This document shows positions 671-6,048 of a stretch of 6,093 bases of DNA, one piece after another (position 1 is the first letter of the stretch; each line of letters opens with the position of its first letter). Made by a program: the position numbers and the translations under genes. The stretch is from the IMG/VR virus record IMGVR_UViG_3300014514_000015, one strand, 5' to 3'. The notes below the pieces were generated by a model that had not been told where the DNA came from, did not search any database, and saw nothing but the letters and a program-made list of their open reading frames with translations. This DNA is from a virus (taxonomy: Duplodnaviria > Heunggongvirae > Uroviricota > Caudoviricetes).

Positions 671-910
671 ATGGGTAGCATTAACCTGCGTATTGACGAT
701 GAACTTAAAGCGCGTTCTTACGCCGCGCTTGAAAAAATGGGTGTAACTCCTTCTGAAGCGCTTCGTCTCATGCTCGAGTATATCGCTGACAATGAACGCT
801 TGCCGTTCAAACAGACACTCCTGAGTGATGAAGATGCTGAACTTGTGGAGATAGTGAAAGAACGGCTTCGTAATCCTAAGCCAGTACGTGTGACGCTGGA
901 TGAACTCTGA
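671..910 (+). CDS. relB: RelB antitoxin (RelB/DinJ family), 79 aa
   Basis: Translation MGSINLRIDDELKARSYAALEKMGVTPSEALRLMLEYIADNERLPFKQTLLSDEDAELVEIVKERLRNPKPVRVTLDEL is near-identical to E. coli RelB as I recall it; SD upstream; stop overlaps relE start (TGATG). Confidence 0.95.
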   Translation: MGSINLRIDDELKARSYAALEKMGVTPSEALRLMLEYIADNERLPFKQTLLSDEDAELVEIVKERLRNPKPVRVTLDEL

Positions 911-1197
911 TGGCGTATTTTCTGGATTTTGACGAGCGGGCACTAAAGGAATGGCGAAAGCTGGGCTCGACGGTACGTGAACAGTTGAAAAAGAAGCTGG
1001 TTGAAGTACTTGAGTCACCCCGGATTGAAGCAAACAAGCTCCGTGGTATGCCTGATTGTTACAAGATTAAGCTCCGGTCTTCAGGCTATCGCCTTGTATA
1101 CCAGGTTATAGACGAGAAAGTTGTCGTTTTCGTGATTTCTGTTGGGAAAAGAGAACGCTCGGAAGTATATAGCGAGGCGGTCAAACGCATTCTCTGA
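910..1197 (+). CDS. relE: RelE mRNA interferase toxin, 95 aa
   Basis: Translation MAYFLDFDERALKEWRKLGSTVREQLKKKLVEVLESPRIEANKLRGMPDCYKIKLRSSGYRLVYQVIDEKVVVFVISVGKRERSEVYSEAVKRIL matches E. coli RelE; translationally coupled to relB. Confidence 0.95.
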   Translation: MAYFLDFDERALKEWRKLGSTVREQLKKKLVEVLESPRIEANKLRGMPDCYKIKLRSSGYRLVYQVIDEKVVVFVISVGKRERSEVYSEAVKRIL

Positions 1198-1268
1198 ACC
1201 AAAGCATGACATCTCTGTTTCGCACCGAAGGTGACACTTCTGCTTTGCGTTGACAGGAGAAGCAGGCT

Positions 1269-1424
1269 ATGAAGCAGCAAAAGGCGATGTTAATCGCCCT
1301 GATCGTCATCTGTTTAACCGTCATAGTGACGGCACTGGTAACGAGGAAAGACCTCTGCGAGGTACGAATCCGAACCGGCCAGACGGAGGTCGCTGTCTTC
1401 ACAGCTTACGAACCTGAGGAGTAA
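1269..1424 (+). CDS. hokD: Hok-family membrane toxin HokD (RelF), 51 aa
   Basis: Manual translation MKQQKAMLIALIVICLTVIVTALVTRKDLCEVRIRTGQTEVAVFTAYEPEE is a hydrophobic Hok-type peptide; SD AGGAG at 1255-1259. Under 60 aa, so absent from the ORF track. Confidence 0.85.
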   Translation: MKQQKAMLIALIVICLTVIVTALVTRKDLCEVRIRTGQTEVAVFTAYEPEE

Positions 1425-1493
1425 GAGACCTGGCGAGGGAGAAATCCCTCGCCACCTCTGATGAGTCAGGCATCCTCAACGCACCCGCACTTA

Positions 1494-1519
1494 ACCCGCT
1501 TCGGCGGGTTTTGTTTTTT
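1494..1519 (+). terminator. Rho-independent terminator closing the relBE-hokD operon
   Basis: Stem CCCGC/GCGGG with TTCG tetraloop (1495-1508) followed by TTTTGTTTTTT. Confidence 0.7.
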
Positions 1520-2927: not shown

Positions 2928-3287
2928 ATGCTCATAGATTTGGTTTTACCTTACCCGCCGACGGTGAACACTTACTGGCGACGCCGTGGCAGCACATATT
3001 TTATCTCGGAGGAGGGAAAGCGTTATCGCCGGGCTGTGGCGCTTATTGTTCGCCAGCAGCGGCTGAAATTAAGCCTGTCCGGACGGCTGGCAATAAAAAT
3101 TATTGCAGAGCCACCGGATAAGCGCCGTCGTGACCTGGACAATATCCTGAAAGCACCACTGGATGCGCTGACGCATGCCGGACTTCTCATAGACGACGAG
3201 CAGTTTGATGAAATCAATATTGTGCGCGGTCAGCTCGTTCCTGGTGGGCGGCTGGGGATAAAAATCACAGAACTGGAGTGCGCATGA
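2928..3287 (+). CDS. rusA: RusA-family Holliday junction resolvase, 119 aa
   Basis: N-terminal motif LPYPPTVNTYWRRRG and the DKRRRDLDN acidic catalytic motif typical of RusA; SD AAGAGG at 2916-2921; stop overlaps Q start (ATGA). Confidence 0.85.
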   Translation: MLIDLVLPYPPTVNTYWRRRGSTYFISEEGKRYRRAVALIVRQQRLKLSLSGRLAIKIIAEPPDKRRRDLDNILKAPLDALTHAGLLIDDEQFDEINIVRGQLVPGGRLGIKITELECA

Positions 3288-3973
3288 ATAACCAGTATTT
3301 ACAGTTTGTGCGTGAGCAGCTCATTATCGCCACCGCTGATTTGAGTGGGGCAACAAAAGGTCAGCTTGAAGCCTGGCAGGAGAATGCCATGTTCGATACA
3401 GGGCGTTACAGGCGAAAAAAAATCCGGTACCGCGATGAAGTGACTGGAAAAATGATAACGCGGGATAATCCACCAATCCCGGGAAAACAATCACTGGCGA
3501 ATGGCTCATCAATTGCCCTGGTCAGCCCGGTTGAGTTTTCGACATCATCATGGCGGCGGGCTTTGCTGTCTCTTGAAGAGCATCATAAAGCCTGGTTGTT
3601 GTGGTGTTACGGCGAGAGTATTTGTTGGGAATATCAGATCGCGATAACACAGTGGGCGTGGAATGAATTTAATACTCAATCCGGTACCAGAAAAATTGCA
3701 GGGAAAACGCAGGAACGCCTGAAAAAATTAATCTGGCTGGCGGCGCAGGCAGTAAAAGCAGAACTTTTTGGTGGGGAAGGTTATGAATACCAGGAGCTGG
3801 CATTACTGGCGGGAGTGACAACTAAAAACTGGTCCAAAACATTTACTCGTCACTGGGTTGCAATGAAACACATTTTTCAACGACTGGATAGTGAGGCTTT
3901 ATTGTTTGTAATGAGAACACGTTCAAAACAAAAGGCGGCATTTTCAAAGCAAAGTGTTGCAAAAGTAGATTGA
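3284..3973 (+). CDS. Late-gene antitermination protein Q (lambdoid Q family), about 229 aa
   Basis: Position immediately upstream of a late promoter and terminator, translation resembling Qin-type Q proteins; ATG 3284 with GGAG at 3275-3278. The ORF track starts at in-frame GTG 3278. Confidence 0.75.
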   Translation: MNNQYLQFVREQLIIATADLSGATKGQLEAWQENAMFDTGRYRRKKIRYRDEVTGKMITRDNPPIPGKQSLANGSSIALVSPVEFSTSSWRRALLSLEEHHKAWLLWCYGESICWEYQIAITQWAWNEFNTQSGTRKIAGKTQERLKKLIWLAAQAVKAELFGGEGYEYQELALLAGVTTKNWSKTFTRHWVAMKHIFQRLDSEALLFVMRTRSKQKAAFSKQSVAKVD

Positions 3974-3985
3974 AAGGCATATATT
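3957..3985 (+). promoter_or_regulatory. PR'-like late promoter overlapping the end of Q
   Basis: -35 TTGCAA (3957-3962), 17-bp spacer, -10 TATATT (3980-3985). Confidence 0.45.
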
Positions 3986-4036
3986 TCATGCAAATCTGAT
4001 ATTTTGCCGATTTTGTACGTGATGGCAAAAGCAAAC

Positions 4037-4063
4037 AAAACCCGCCCACAAGCGGGTTTTTTT
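4037..4063 (+). terminator. tR'-like rho-independent terminator, the expected target of Q antitermination
   Basis: AAAA-CCCGC-CCACAA-GCGGG-TTTTTTT: 5-bp GC stem with flanking A and T tracts. Confidence 0.7.
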
Positions 4064-4145
4064 GTGCCACTTATCTCGGATAGACATGGTGAATGCGCTG
4101 GTGGAGGAGCTAAGGGTGATTTTTAACCAGGTGATTTTTGAATGC

Positions 4146-4174
4146 TTGCAACATTGATTTCGTAACGTTATTAT
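4146..4174 (+). promoter_or_regulatory. Sigma-70 promoter for the tRNA operon with a GC-rich discriminator
   Basis: -35 TTGCAA (4146-4151), 17-bp spacer, -10 TATTAT (4169-4174), then CCTGCGCC before the first tRNA at 4184. GGTGATTTTT direct repeat at 4115-4124 and 4130-4139 just upstream. Confidence 0.5.
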
Positions 4175-4183
4175 CCTGCGCCC

Positions 4184-4259
4184 GGCCCTTTAGCTCAGAG
4201 GTGAGAGCGAGCGACTCATAATCGCCAGGTCGCTGGTTCAAATCCAGCAAGGGCCACCA
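4184..4259 (+). tRNA. ileZ: tRNA with CAU anticodon, probably Ile2 (lysidine-type, ileZ-like), 76 nt
   Basis: Cloverleaf folded by hand: acceptor GGCCCTT/AAGGGCC, anticodon loop CTCATAA, T-arm GCTGG-TTCAAAT-CCAGC, encoded CCA. Ile versus Met cannot be decided from sequence alone. Confidence 0.85.
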
Positions 4260-4266
4260 TCACATA

Positions 4267-4343
4267 CCGCCATTAGCTCATCAGGATAGAGCACCAGCCT
4301 TCGAAGCTGGTTGCGCGGGGGTCGAGTCCTCGATGGCGGTCCA
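4267..4343 (+). tRNA. argN: tRNA-Arg with UCG anticodon (argN-like), 77 nt
   Basis: Acceptor CCGCCAT/ATGGCGG, D-loop with A20, anticodon loop CTTCGAA (C35 present), encoded CCA. The T-loop GTCGAGT and the C1-G72 pair are atypical. Confidence 0.75.
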
Positions 4344-4356
4344 TTATCTGTACCCT

Positions 4357-4433
4357 GCGTTGTTAGCTCAACCGGACAGAGCAATTGCCTTCTAAGCAAT
4401 CGGTCACTGGTTCGAATCCAGTACAACGCGCCA
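4357..4433 (+). tRNA. argO: tRNA-Arg with UCU anticodon (argO/argU-like), 77 nt
   Basis: Acceptor GCGTTGT/ACAACGC, anticodon loop CTTCTAA, T-arm ACTGG-TTCGAAT-CCAGT, discriminator G, encoded CCA. Confidence 0.85.
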
Positions 4434-4447
4434 GACTTATTTTTCCC

Positions 4448-4473
4448 GGCTCGCTTTTGCGGGCCTTTTTTTT
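4448..4473 (+). terminator. Rho-independent terminator after the tRNA operon
   Basis: 7-bp stem GGCTCGC/GCGGGCC (one G-U pair), TTTT loop, followed by eight T. Confidence 0.75.
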
Positions 4474-4673
4474 AAATGTCTCACAATTCAGACGGTTGAC
4501 AGTTGTCTGTTTTGCGGGGAGTTTGTTAAAAGAAACTGGCATGGTGAATCCCCCTGTGCGGAGGGGCAATCAGCGAGTAGGTATATGGGATAATCGCGGA
4601 TTCAGGTGCTGGTACTGAATTCACCGGGAGGCACCCGGCACCATGCAGTTGACTGAAACCATGTATACTCTCA

Positions 4674-4703
4674 GGCCCCACGCACATGTGTTGGGGCCTT
4701 TTT
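4674..4703 (+). terminator. Rho-independent terminator in the cargo slot
   Basis: Stem GGCCCCA/TGGGGCC with an 11-nt loop, followed by TTTTT. Confidence 0.55.
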
Positions 4704-4709
4704 ACATGC

Positions 4710-4776
4710 AAAAAAAAGCCCGCATATGGATACGGGCGGCAAGGAACAAAAAACGTGAAGTGATCTATTCAGCCAG
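4710..4776 (-). ncRNA. Candidate small RNA of about 65 nt on the minus strand (predicted promoter-to-terminator unit)
   Basis: Minus-strand promoter -35 TTGCGC (4809-4804), 18-bp spacer, -10 TATTAT (4785-4780). Minus-strand terminator hairpin GCCCG-N10-CGGGC (4737-4718) followed by eight U (plus-strand A run 4710-4717). No ORF with a ribosome-binding site. Confidence 0.2.
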
Positions 4777-4874
4777 TGGATAATACCCTGACGTTACCAT
4801 ATTGCGCAATCGCGCATTCTTTCTTTTTCGCTCCCCTTATAACTACGCCATCCGTTCGCTGCGGAGGTGAGGCT

Positions 4875-5090
4875 ATGAAATCCATGGATAAAATTTCAAC
4901 GGGCATTGCCTACGGCACCTCCGCAGGCAGTGCTGGCTACTGGTTTTTACAGTGGCTTGATCAGGTCAGTCCGTCACAGTGGGCTGCGATTGGTGTACTG
5001 GGGAGTCTGGTTCTGGGCTTCCTGACATATCTGACTAACCTGTATTTCAAAATCAGAGAGGACCGTCGTAAGGCTGCACGGGGAGAGTAA
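4875..5090 (+). CDS. Phage 21 S-type pinholin/antiholin with dual start (71-aa form from Met1, 68-aa form from Met4)
   Basis: Translation [71 protein letters not shown] with two transmembrane segments; SD GGAGGTGA at 4864-4870. The ORF track extends it to 4776, but that upstream part has no SD. Confidence 0.9.
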
Positions 5091-5508: not shown

Positions 5509-6048
5509 ATGAACGCAAAAATCAGATACGGCCTGTCGGCTGCCGTTCTGGCACTGATTGCCGTCGGTGCGCCCGCGCCTGATATTCTCGACCAGTTTCT
5601 GGATGAAAAAGAAGGTAACCACACAACGGCATACCGCGATGGTTCCGGCATCTGGACCATCTGTCGGGGTGCCACGATGGTGGATGGAAAACCCGTTTTT
5701 CCCGGTATGAAACTGNNNNNNNNNNNNNNNNNNNNNNNNNNNNNNNNNNNNNNNNNNNNNNNNNNNNNNNNNNNNNNNNNNNNNNNNNNNNTAAAGTACC
5801 ACTGACCGAACCACAAAAAGCGGGTATCGCGTCATTTTGTCCCTATAACATTGGCCCCGGTAAGTGTTTTCCATCGACGTTTTATAAGCGGCTGAATGCT
5901 GGTGATCGTAAGGGCGCATGCGAGGCGATTCGCTGGTGGATAAAAGATGGTGGGCGCGATTGCCGCATACGTTCAAATAACTGCTATGGACAGGTTATTC
6001 GTCGTGACCAAGAAAGCGCATTAGCCTGTTGGGGAATAGATCAGTGAG
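5509..6048 (+). CDS. SAR endolysin (T4-lysozyme-like, GH24), interrupted by an assembly gap and with an apparent +1 frameshift near the 3' end
   Basis: N-terminus MNAKIRYGLSAAVLALIAVGA is a signal-anchor-release domain; catalytic pattern E35-x8-D44-x5-T50. After the gap the translation VPLTEPQKAGIASFCPYNIGPGKCFPSTFYKRLNAGDRKGACEAIRWWIKDGGRDCRIRSNNCYGQVI continues the lysozyme fold. That frame stops at 6006-6008; the expected tail RRDQESALACWGIDQ is in the +1 frame and ends at TGA 6046-6048. Confidence 0.75.
5716..5791. other. Assembly gap of 76 N inside the endolysin gene
   Basis: Run of N; reading frames on either side are inconsistent with the gap length, so the length is an estimate (about 71 nt expected from homolog length). 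Confidence 0.95.

What the first reader, a model, noticed from the sequence alone, without database searches (positions are those of the whole stretch)
4474..4874. Cargo slot between phage tRNAs and holin carries no gene but holds convergent terminators and a candidate minus-strand small RNA
In lambdoid phages the slot between Q/tRNAs and the holin is where cargo sits (stx in Stx phages, cspB/cspF in Qin). Here it is about 400 bp with no credible ORF. It contains a plus-strand terminator (4674-4703) and, 7 bp away, a minus-strand terminator (4710-4737), preceded on the minus strand by a near-consensus promoter (TTGCGC-18-TATTAT, 4809-4780). Together these predict a 65-nt antisense-oriented RNA with a U-rich body (GUUUUUUGUUCCUUGCC) ending just upstream of the holin. 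It could be a regulatory sRNA or a remnant of lost cargo.
Basis: partly seen in the sequence, partly recalled or inferred. Interest (0 to 1): 0.6.

Follow-up and report, generated by a model that had tools for sequence, protein, structure and literature searches.

The report
Convergent small-RNA pair before phage holin
The stretch between the phage tRNAs and the holin gene has no protein gene but holds two small-RNA genes facing each other, an arrangement already described for lambda-like prophages of pathogenic E. coli, so the find is real but largely known.

Summary
Bases 4510-4709 (+) match the Rfam family STnc100 over its full length (140 bits; threshold 47). The minus-strand unit (promoter 4809..4780, RNA about 4774..4710, terminator 4737..4718 plus U8) is homologous to EcOnc08/21/42 of EHEC and to an Hfq RIL-seq sRNA of EPEC. 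It sits tail-to-tail with STnc100, at the locus where AsxR and AgvB sit in other prophages.

In all 63 cassettes examined the promoter has TTGCGC (three TTGCAA), exactly 18 bases, then TATTAT or TAAAAT. The spacer sequence diverges (39-67% identity to the window). For AsxR, AgvB and EcOnc03, published 5' RACE places primary starts just after that -10. The promoter matches only 8 of 12 consensus positions, so it is not "near-consensus", and it is supported by conservation rather than by score.

Tree et al. (2014) described convergent sRNA pairs at this "moron" site. The "lost cargo remnant" idea is not supported. The window carries a new sequence allele of an uncharacterised sRNA group that keeps the seed CCUUGCC. 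No expression data exist for this allele.

The parts
4448..4473 (+). Intrinsic terminator closing the tRNA trio (Ile/Met-CAT, Arg-TCG, Arg-TCT at 4184-4433). It marks the upstream edge of the slot. In Stx2 phages stx2AB is inserted just after the tRNAs.
   Evidence: Scanner: 7 pairs plus T8. tRNAs. Position of stx2AB in L004 and L006.
4474..4509 (+). Conserved leader of the STnc100 module (TAAATGTCTCACAATTCAG...TTGACA at 4496-4501). It probably holds the STnc100 promoter. The true 5' end is not determined.
   Evidence: Homology among STnc100 copies begins here whatever lies upstream. Northern sizes of 222-247 nt for the Sakai copies. RpoD ChIP-exo sites at the Salmonella copies.
4510..4709 (+). 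STnc100-family small RNA gene (Rfam RF02076). It is the counterpart of EcOnc05 (Sp4) and EcOnc27/sRNA103 (Stx2 phage).
   Evidence: cmscan gives 140.2 bits against a gathering score of 47, E 6.9e-32, model positions 1-206 of 206. Sakai counterparts.
4674..4703 (+). Terminator hairpin plus T5 of STnc100.
   Evidence: It aligns to the 3' helix of the STnc100 model.
4710..4774 (-). Predicted ~65-nt Hfq-type small RNA, an allele of the EcOnc08/21/42 group: GGCUGAAUAGAUCACUUCACGUUUUUUGUUCCUUGCCGCCCGUAUCCAUAUGCGGGCUUUUUUUU.
   Evidence: Homology to E2348/69 PP6 and Sakai Sp4. Conserved block 4711-4815 in about 870 genomes. Fold -22.7 kcal/mol, z -4.87. The 5' end is inferred from the mapped starts of AsxR/AgvB/EcOnc03, the 6th base after the -10.
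4710..4737 (-). Intrinsic terminator of the minus-strand RNA: stem 4737..4718, U8 at 4717..4710.
   Evidence: Scanner. Every allele has its own hairpin plus U-run.
4738..4744 (-). Probable seed CCUUGCC, just 5' of the terminator.
   Evidence: The target motif GGCA[AG]GG of the EPEC homologue is complementary to it. It is present in 38 of 42 alleles of this class. cfa 5'UTR has CGGCAAGGG and pcm has UGGCAAGG.
4780..4809 (-). Sigma-70-type promoter TTGCGC (4809..4804), 18-base spacer, TATTAT (4785..4780).
   Evidence: Sequence. All 63 of 63 cassettes have TTGC[GA][CA]-18-TA(TT/AA)AT. Column identity is 0.97 for the -35, 0.68 for the spacer and 0.90 for the -10. The AsxR 5' end lies 6 bases after the homologous -10.
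4803..4829 (.). Dual-reading element. On the minus strand it is an A-rich tract upstream of the -35, resembling an UP element. On the plus strand it is a hairpin (4803-4816) plus a T-rich run, a terminator-like site ahead of the holin.
   Evidence: Scanner. The A-tract and hairpin are present in all alleles.
4875..5090 (+). Class II (P21-type) holin. It marks the downstream edge of the slot.
   Evidence: Pfam PF04971, 122 bits. RefSeq annotation.

Best explanation
The slot holds the convergent small-RNA pair that lambda-like prophages carry at the 'moron' site downstream of Q.

The plus strand encodes an STnc100-family sRNA (about 4510-4709) that ends at the hairpin 4674-4703.

The minus strand encodes a ~65-nt sRNA (4774..4710). 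It is made from its own sigma-70 promoter (TTGCGC-18-TATTAT, 4809..4780, with an A-rich upstream tract) and ends at the hairpin 4737..4718 plus U8. This RNA is a new sequence allele of the EcOnc08/21/42 group. It occupies the same locus, in the same orientation and with the same promoter geometry as the anti-sRNAs AsxR and AgvB.

Shown here:
- the family match for STnc100;
- the homology, position and orientation of the minus-strand unit;
- the conservation pattern of its promoter;
- the terminator structure.

Inferred:
- The RNA is transcribed in the lysogen, binds Hfq through its hairpin and U-tail, and pairs in trans with host mRNAs through CCUUGCC and the adjacent U/G-rich stretch. Its EPEC homologue is ligated on Hfq to cfa 5'UTR, dppA 5'UTR and pcm.
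- The stacked terminators also keep transcription from the constitutive tRNA and sRNA promoters out of the lysis genes until Q-modified polymerase reads through.
For: - STnc100 match: 140.2 bits against a threshold of 47.
- The same pair is tail-to-tail in other prophages. Sakai Sp5 has STnc100 at 207.7 bits and AsxR at 88.1 bits. Sakai Sp4 has EcOnc05 (+) and EcOnc08 (-). E2348/69 PP6, TW14359 and an Stx2a phage show it too.
- Tree et al. 2014 describe 'convergent sRNA genes' at the moron site of Sp3, 4, 5, 9, 10, 11, 15 and 17, and map primary 5' ends for EcOnc01-03.
- The block conserved against the window is 4711-4815, which runs from the terminator to the -35.
- All 63 cassettes keep the hexamers and an 18-base spacer. 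The spacer is only 39-67% identical to the window's.
- The EcOnc08 Hfq-CRAC peak (1179938-1180010) spans the predicted short RNA of Sp4.
- In EPEC RIL-seq the homologue is always RNA2. Chimeras: 767 with cfa 5'UTR, 197 with dppA 5'UTR, 118 with pcm. The target motif is complementary to CCUUGCC.
- The window RNA folds with z = -4.87.
Against: - No expression data exist for this allele.
- The only Northern for the EcOnc08/21/42 group used a probe that lies over the -10 to -35 region and detected about 271 nt. EPEC RNA-seq suggested about 182 nt. So a longer minus-strand RNA that runs through the proposed promoter exists in Sp4, Sp15 and PP6, and the short form has not been shown directly for this class.
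- The -35 hexamer lies inside a hairpin that reads as a plus-strand terminator. Its conservation may therefore owe something to that role.
- The promoter matches only 8 of 12 consensus positions.
- The window allele has a shortened U/G stretch, so dppA pairing may be lost.
Confidence: 0.72

Rival explanations
1. The functional minus-strand product is a longer antisense RNA, or a cis-acting antisense regulator, rather than a 65-nt trans-acting sRNA. It would pair with the Q-dependent late transcript, to which it is perfectly complementary 100-165 bases upstream of the holin start, and so affect lysis-gene expression or late-transcript processing.
For: - The EHEC Northern detected about 271 nt with a probe over the proposed promoter.
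- The EPEC size estimate is 182 nt.
- A minus-strand promoter ATGCCA-17-GATAAT lies upstream in Sp4 and Sp5.
- The sRNA gene is by construction antisense to any late read-through transcript.
Against: - The window lacks that upstream promoter and the sequence around it. Homology ends at 4815, and the scanner finds no minus-strand promoter between 4800 and 5100.
- The alleles studied (AsxR, AgvB) act in trans.
- The EPEC homologue is ligated to host mRNAs on Hfq.
Confidence: 0.15
2. The two hairpins act only as back-to-back insulators that stop stray transcription from either side. The promoter-like hexamers are inactive in this phage, so no stable minus-strand RNA is made.
For: - The promoter matches 8 of 12 positions and is below the scanner threshold.
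- The -35 is embedded in a plus-strand terminator-like hairpin.
- Lysis genes need protection from the upstream constitutive promoters.
Against: - The -10 hexamer and the 18-base spacing are kept in 63 of 63 cassettes while the spacer diverges.
- A minus-strand terminator with no transcript to stop would have no reason to be kept next to a conserved seed and body.
- Homologues are abundant Hfq ligands.
Confidence: 0.09
3. The minus-strand terminator and promoter are debris from a cargo gene that was deleted from the slot.
For: - The slot is short and has no protein gene.
- Related phages carry stx2AB or an esterase gene in this general region.
Against: - In those phages the cargo sits outside the sRNA pair. 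stx2AB lies between the tRNAs and STnc100. The esterase gene lies between the sRNA promoter and the holin. The pair itself is intact.
- The unit's boundaries coincide with a complete promoter-to-terminator cassette.
Confidence: 0.03

Closest known systems
[quoted passage not shown] 2014, Mol Cell; PMC4104026)
   Same: - Downstream of Q and PR', between the moron/tRNA region and the next phage ORF.
- A ~200-nt plus-strand sRNA and a short minus-strand sRNA lie tail-to-tail.
   Different: - Here no protein-coding moron lies upstream and no esterase gene lies downstream.
- The pair abuts the tRNA terminator on one side and the holin ribosome-binding site on the other.
EcOnc08/EcOnc21/EcOnc42 (EHEC Sakai Sp4 and Sp15) and E2348C_1409.E2348C_1408.IGR (EPEC PP6)
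   Same: - Homologous from the terminator through the body to the -35.
- CUUCACGUUUU, UUCCUUGCC and the TTGCGC-18-TATTAT promoter are all retained.
   Different: - Identity is only 72-75%.
- The U/G-rich stretch is shorter, the terminator stem-loop differs, and the 5' 15 nt differ.
- The upstream region that gives the longer (~180-270 nt) RNA in those prophages is absent.
Anti-sRNAs AsxR (RF02703) and AgvB (RF02702), and EcOnc03
   Same: - Same locus and same orientation, convergent with STnc100.
- Same -35 hexamer and 18-base spacer, and the same A-tract and hairpin upstream.
- Short RNA ending in a hairpin plus U-run.
   Different: - The -10 is TAAAAT rather than TATTAT.
- The body and terminator are unrelated in sequence. 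AgvB scores 11.9 bits and AsxR does not hit.
- Those RNAs sponge core sRNAs (GcvB, FnrS). The partners recorded for the window's class are mRNAs.
STnc100 (RF02076), also known as EcOnc05, EcOnc27 and sRNA103; related to PasD1/PasD2
   Same: - Full-length covariance-model match.
- The conserved 5' ~170 nt include the CCCCCUGUGCGGAGGGG hairpin.
   Different: - The 3' ~60 nt (single-stranded stretch and terminator) form a distinct variant.
- The function of the family is still unknown.
Other antisense-oriented sRNAs of the prophage late region: PasA/PasC (EcOnc51/52) and HnrS (EcOnc10-12)
   Same: Short Hfq-dependent sRNAs transcribed against the late operon of lambdoid prophages.
   Different: - They lie at different loci. 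PasA lies between the esterase gene and the holin. HnrS lies after Rz.
- The window shows no sequence similarity to either.

Membership tests
STnc100 (Rfam RF02076) | Covariance-model score at or above the curated gathering score, over the full model | tested here: met
   140.2 bits against 47. Model positions 1-206 of 206 at window 4510-4709 (+).
STnc100 (Rfam RF02076) | Expressed as a stable ~170-250-nt RNA | not testable with these tools
   Shown only for other copies: Northern of EcOnc05 and EcOnc27 and of STnc100_4.
Convergent sRNA pair at the lambdoid moron site (Tree 2014) | Lies downstream of the Q antiterminator, between the moron or tRNA region and the next phage ORF | tested here: met
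   Q (PF06323) at 3278-3973, tRNAs at 4184-4433, holin (PF04971) at 4875.
Convergent sRNA pair at the lambdoid moron site (Tree 2014) | Two sRNA genes tail-to-tail, each with its own intrinsic terminator | tested here: met
   Plus-strand hairpin 4674-4703 and minus-strand hairpin 4737..4718 lie 6-7 bases apart. Sp4 and Sp5 have the same layout.
Convergent sRNA pair at the lambdoid moron site (Tree 2014) | Both RNAs bind Hfq | not testable with these tools
   Known for homologues only.
EcOnc08/21/42 group | Sequence homology to the Hfq-bound region EcOnc08, in the same position and orientation | tested here: met
   72-75% identity over 4711-4815. Alignments A1-A3. Coordinates mapped on Sakai Sp4.
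EcOnc08/21/42 group | Seed CCUUGCC complementary to the RIL-seq target motif GGCA[AG]GG | tested here: met
   Present at 4744..4738.
EcOnc08/21/42 group | Longer (~180-270 nt) transcript that includes the EcOnc21 region | tested here: not met
   The upstream sequence and the ATGCCA-17-GATAAT promoter of Sp4 and Sp5 are absent from the window.
AsxR (RF02703) / AgvB (RF02702) anti-sRNAs | Covariance-model score at or above the gathering score; conserved 3' ~42 nt | tested here: not met
   AgvB scores 11.9 bits against 56. AsxR gives no match at E up to 10.
AsxR (RF02703) / AgvB (RF02702) anti-sRNAs | Same locus and same promoter architecture | tested here: met
   TTGCGC-18-(TAAAAT or TATTAT), convergent with STnc100.
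AsxR (RF02703) / AgvB (RF02702) anti-sRNAs | Acts by sequestering or destabilising a core sRNA | not tested
   No screen against core sRNA sequences was run. The EPEC homologue's recorded partners are mRNAs.
Sigma-70 promoter | Hexamers close to TTGACA and TATAAT at 16-18 bases | tested here: inconclusive
   8 of 12 positions with an 18-base spacer, below the scanner threshold. The hexamers and spacing are invariant across alleles. Activity was not measured.

The most novel reading that the evidence does not exclude
The unit from the -35 to the terminator may be a portable sRNA expression cassette. Its promoter, spacing and terminator are held fixed while the targeting body is swapped between phages, so one locus carries alleles with opposing effects on the same host circuit.

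- AgvB at this locus mimics dppA and sponges GcvB.
- The EcOnc08-type allele carries UUUGUUGUUU. This pairs perfectly with the CA-rich stretch AAACAACAAA just upstream of the dppA ribosome-binding site, which I take from memory to be the GcvB site. It is also ligated to dppA 5'UTR on Hfq.
- The window allele has lost most of that stretch but keeps CCUUGCC, which would retarget it towards cfa and pcm.
Probability: 0.25. Interest if true: 0.55.

Novelty: new member of a known kind. Interest (0 to 1): 0.3.

Why it matters
Routine annotation shows this slot as empty. RefSeq lists only a pseudo-ORF fragment there. In fact it holds two regulatory RNA genes.

At least 97 complete E. coli genomes carry this exact allele, and about 870 more carry relatives. 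Many of the window-type hosts come from sources such as wastewater or extraintestinal infection rather than from EHEC or EPEC. Prophage sRNAs that were first seen in EHEC and EPEC, and that touch host membrane-lipid (cfa) and peptide-uptake (dppA) mRNAs, may therefore be spread more widely than the pathogen-focused literature suggests.

The conserved promoter and terminator frame gives a simple way to find and classify all alleles of this locus.

Tried and rejected
- **HnrS (EcOnc10-12, 66 nt) as the identity of the 65-nt RNA.** Rejected. It lies after Rz in Sp12 and shows no similarity to the window.
- **PasA/PasC (EcOnc51/52), which sit just upstream of holins in EPEC.** Rejected. No similarity.
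- **Membership of Rfam AsxR or AgvB.** Rejected on score.
- **Coding potential of the slot.** Four ORFs have no Pfam hit. The ATG-started reading frame inside STnc100 is 25 codons here and 11 in Sp5, so it is not conserved (read).
- **RNAalifold covariation on 12 alleles.** Only the terminator stem was predicted, with one compensatory pair. MAFFT put the divergent terminators out of register, so this test is weak. The per-allele folds are the better evidence.
- **Unconstrained duplex predictions against cfa, dppA and pcm.** They gave unrealistic full-length duplexes with z-scores near 0. Only the short exact complementarities read from those sequences are used.
- **A minus-strand ncRNA next to STnc100 copies in the EDL933 RNA-seq supplement.** Nothing found.
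- **Literature search for a functional study of EcOnc08/21/42.** None found.
- **The STnc100 promoter and 5' end.** Not resolved. TTGACA at 4496-4501 is conserved but lacks a good -10. The published Northern sizes (222-247 nt) would put the start near 4465-4490.

Full report
**Context.** The window is a mosaic lambda-like (pro)phage segment of E. coli. In order it carries:
- relB, relE and hokD;
- a DUF968 gene, rusA, and a Q antiterminator (Pfam PF06323) at 3278-3973;
- three tRNAs at 4184-4433;
- the slot in question;
- a P21-type holin (PF04971) at 4875-5090, a ydfR-like gene, and a lysozyme gene.

The slot sequence is 100% identical to Escherichia phage PhiR49_2 and to a prophage of strain WP7-S18-ESBL-09.

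**Checking the observation.**
- The scanner finds the minus-strand terminator at 4737..4718 (8 pairs) followed by T8.
- The plus-strand hairpin at 4674-4703 is real, though the scanner misses it because its loop is long.
- TTGCGC (4809..4804) and TATTAT (4785..4780) are separated by 18 bases.
- The slot has no credible protein gene. Its ORFs are 45-77 aa with no Pfam hit, and RefSeq marks only a pseudo-fragment.

Two statements need correction.
- The promoter matches only 8 of 12 consensus positions (3 of 6 in the -35). It is below the scanner's threshold, so it is not "near-consensus".
- The slot does carry a gene. An Rfam scan places a full-length STnc100 sRNA (RF02076) at 4510-4709 on the plus strand, at 140.2 bits against a gathering score of 47 (E 6.9e-32).

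**The plus-strand RNA.** STnc100 is a multicopy prophage sRNA.
- EDL933 has 11 copies. They are expressed, and one was confirmed by Northern.
- The copy 75 bases downstream of stx2B is EcOnc27/sRNA103.
- The Sp4 copy is EcOnc05, about 222 nt.
- PasD1 and PasD2 of EPEC are considered relatives.
- Salmonella copies have their own RpoD-bound promoter regions.

The last ~60 nt vary between copies. I could not fix the promoter or the 5' end. The function of the family is unknown.

**The minus-strand unit: homologues.** E2348/69 prophage PP6 has the same layout: Q, tRNAs, an IS element, STnc100, then a minus-strand terminator, body and promoter that align with window 4710-4815.
- That EPEC RNA was reported from Hfq RIL-seq as E2348C_1409.E2348C_1408.IGR. 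Its 3' end falls at the last U of this terminator.
- The authors equate it with EcOnc08/21/42 of EHEC Sakai.
- On the Sakai genome, EcOnc08 (1179938-1180010, minus strand) runs from the U-tract to just past the predicted start. It lies tail-to-tail with EcOnc05/STnc100.
- A sensitive BLAST of 4700-4874 against 5,426 complete E. coli genomes finds 97 genomes with the window allele. About 870 more match at 72-77% identity, and those matches cover only 4711-4815, which is terminator to -35.

The conserved block is therefore the predicted transcription unit.

**The locus.** In Sakai Sp5 (the Stx2 phage) the order is stx2B, then STnc100 (207.7 bits), then AsxR on the minus strand (88.1 bits) with two bases between them. 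Tree et al. (2014) state that lambdoid prophages Sp3, 4, 5, 9, 10, 11, 15 and 17 carry "convergent sRNA genes" at the moron insertion site downstream of PR'. They mapped primary 5' ends for EcOnc01-03 (AgvB, AsxR, EcOnc03) by RLM-RACE.

Cargo sits outside the pair. stx2AB lies between the tRNAs and STnc100, and an esterase gene lies between the sRNA promoter and the holin. This argues against the "remnant of lost cargo" reading.

**The promoter.** I scanned IMG/VR with a 26-base STnc100 core and pooled the hits with the loci already fetched. This sample is biased, because it includes loci I fetched on purpose and the window itself.
- Of the 121 STnc100 copies with enough downstream sequence, 63 (28 distinct) have a minus-strand cassette.
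- Every one reads TTGCGC (three read TTGCAA), exactly 18 bases, then TATTAT (42 cassettes) or TAAAAT (21 cassettes, the AsxR/AgvB/EcOnc03 class).
- Column identity is 0.97 for the -35, 0.90 for the -10 and 0.68 for the spacer.
- Against the window allele, the other spacers are 39-67% identical while the -35 is identical in 20 of 22.
- The Rfam AsxR model starts at the 6th base after TAAAAT, consistent with the published mapped starts.

By the same rule the window RNA starts at 4774 (or 4773) and is 64-65 nt.

An A-rich tract precedes the -35 in all alleles. The -35 also lies in a hairpin that, read on the plus strand with its following T-run, looks like a further terminator. Part of its conservation could therefore serve that role.

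**Structure and likely action.** The predicted RNA folds at -22.7 kcal/mol (z -4.87) into a 5' stem-loop, a short linker and the terminator, then U8. All 29 alleles examined have their own hairpin and U-run. RNAalifold gave only the terminator with one compensatory pair, because the alignment of divergent stems was poor.

Within the TATTAT class, CUUCACGUUUU and UUCCUUGCC are conserved. CCUUGCC is present in 38 of 42 cassettes.

In EPEC RIL-seq the PP6 homologue always occupies the second position in chimeras. Its partners are:
- cfa 5'UTR: 767 chimeras, odds ratio 54;
- dppA 5'UTR: 197 chimeras;
- pcm: 118 chimeras;
- fewer with perA, tir, espC and emrA.

The shared target motif GGCA[AG]GG is complementary to CCUUGCC. 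The cfa and pcm fragments contain CGGCAAGGG and UGGCAAGG. The PP6 allele also has UUUGUUGUUU, a perfect complement of AAACAACAAA upstream of the dppA ribosome-binding site. The window allele has only GUUUUUUGUU there.

I therefore infer an Hfq-dependent, trans-acting sRNA with a retained CCUUGCC seed. This is inference from homologues. Nothing has been measured for this allele.

**Complication.** The only Northern for EcOnc08/21/42 used the oligo AATAATATCCGACAGTAATCACTCTGCGCAATAGC. That is the plus-strand sequence across the -10 to -35 region, so it detects a minus-strand RNA that runs through the proposed promoter. The band was about 271 nt. EPEC RNA-seq suggested 182 nt. Sp4 and Sp5 have a further minus-strand promoter (ATGCCA-17-GATAAT) over the esterase start codon. 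The window lacks that region. A long form thus exists elsewhere, and the short form of this class rests on homology with the anti-sRNA promoters and on the shape of the EcOnc08 peak.

**Comparison with known families.**
- The plus-strand RNA is a member of STnc100.
- The minus-strand RNA belongs to the EcOnc08/21/42 group by homology, position and seed, but it is a distinct allele.
- It is not a member of Rfam AsxR or AgvB (AgvB 11.9 bits; AsxR no hit), although it shares their locus and promoter frame.
- It is unrelated to HnrS and PasA.
- No Rfam family covers the group.

**Verdict.** But it is an instance of a published architecture, with a new allele of an uncharacterised sRNA group. Interest is modest.

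Noticed in passing
window 3957-4066: A promoter-like site TTGCAA-17-TATATT overlaps the end of Q. About 50 bases further on lies a strong hairpin plus T7 (4037-4066). Weak sub-threshold Rfam hits to isrK and isrJ (22-25 bits) cover it. This may be the PR'-tR' unit making a ~75-nt leader RNA that Q-modified polymerase reads through.
   Followed up: no
window 4146-4473: The three tRNAs have their own promoter-like site (TTGCAA-17-TATTAT, 4146-4174) and terminator (4448-4473), so they look like an independent unit. ARAGORN calls the first one Met (CAT), but RefSeq and Sakai annotate the homologue as tRNA-Ile (ileZ).
   Followed up: partly
window 4803-4829; L006 3206-3229; L005 2534-2549: The hairpin that contains the sRNA's -35, plus the T-rich run after it, reads on the plus strand as another terminator ahead of the holin or esterase gene. 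It is present in every allele. One element may serve both strands.
   Followed up: partly
L005 2637-2665; L006 3313-3341: A minus-strand promoter ATGCCA-17-GATAAT overlaps the start codon of the esterase gene in Sakai Sp4 and Sp5. It is a candidate source of the ~180-270-nt RNA seen by Northern and RNA-seq. That RNA would be antisense to the esterase ribosome-binding site.
   Followed up: partly
window 4647-4709 compared with L005, L006 and the IMG/VR loci: STnc100 copies share the first ~170 nt but fall into several unrelated variants over the last ~60 nt (single-stranded stretch plus terminator). Both RNAs of the pair therefore have a fixed frame and a variable part.
   Followed up: partly
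window 671-1514: relB, relE and hokD lie upstream of the replication and nin-like genes. A sub-threshold isrK match (27.8 bits, gathering score 50) covers the terminator region just after hokD (1433-1514).
   Followed up: no
window 5716-5791: A run of 76 N interrupts the lysozyme gene. It is masked or unresolved sequence, not biology.
   Followed up: no
E2348/69 NC_011601.1 1060613-1060672 (minus strand), table S3 of PMC8550237: A minus-strand RNA end inside 'E2348C_1013' of prophage PP4, about 180 bases beyond PasD1, takes part in a very large number of RIL-seq fragments (about 808,000 total reads listed). It may be the PP4 counterpart of this locus.
   Followed up: no
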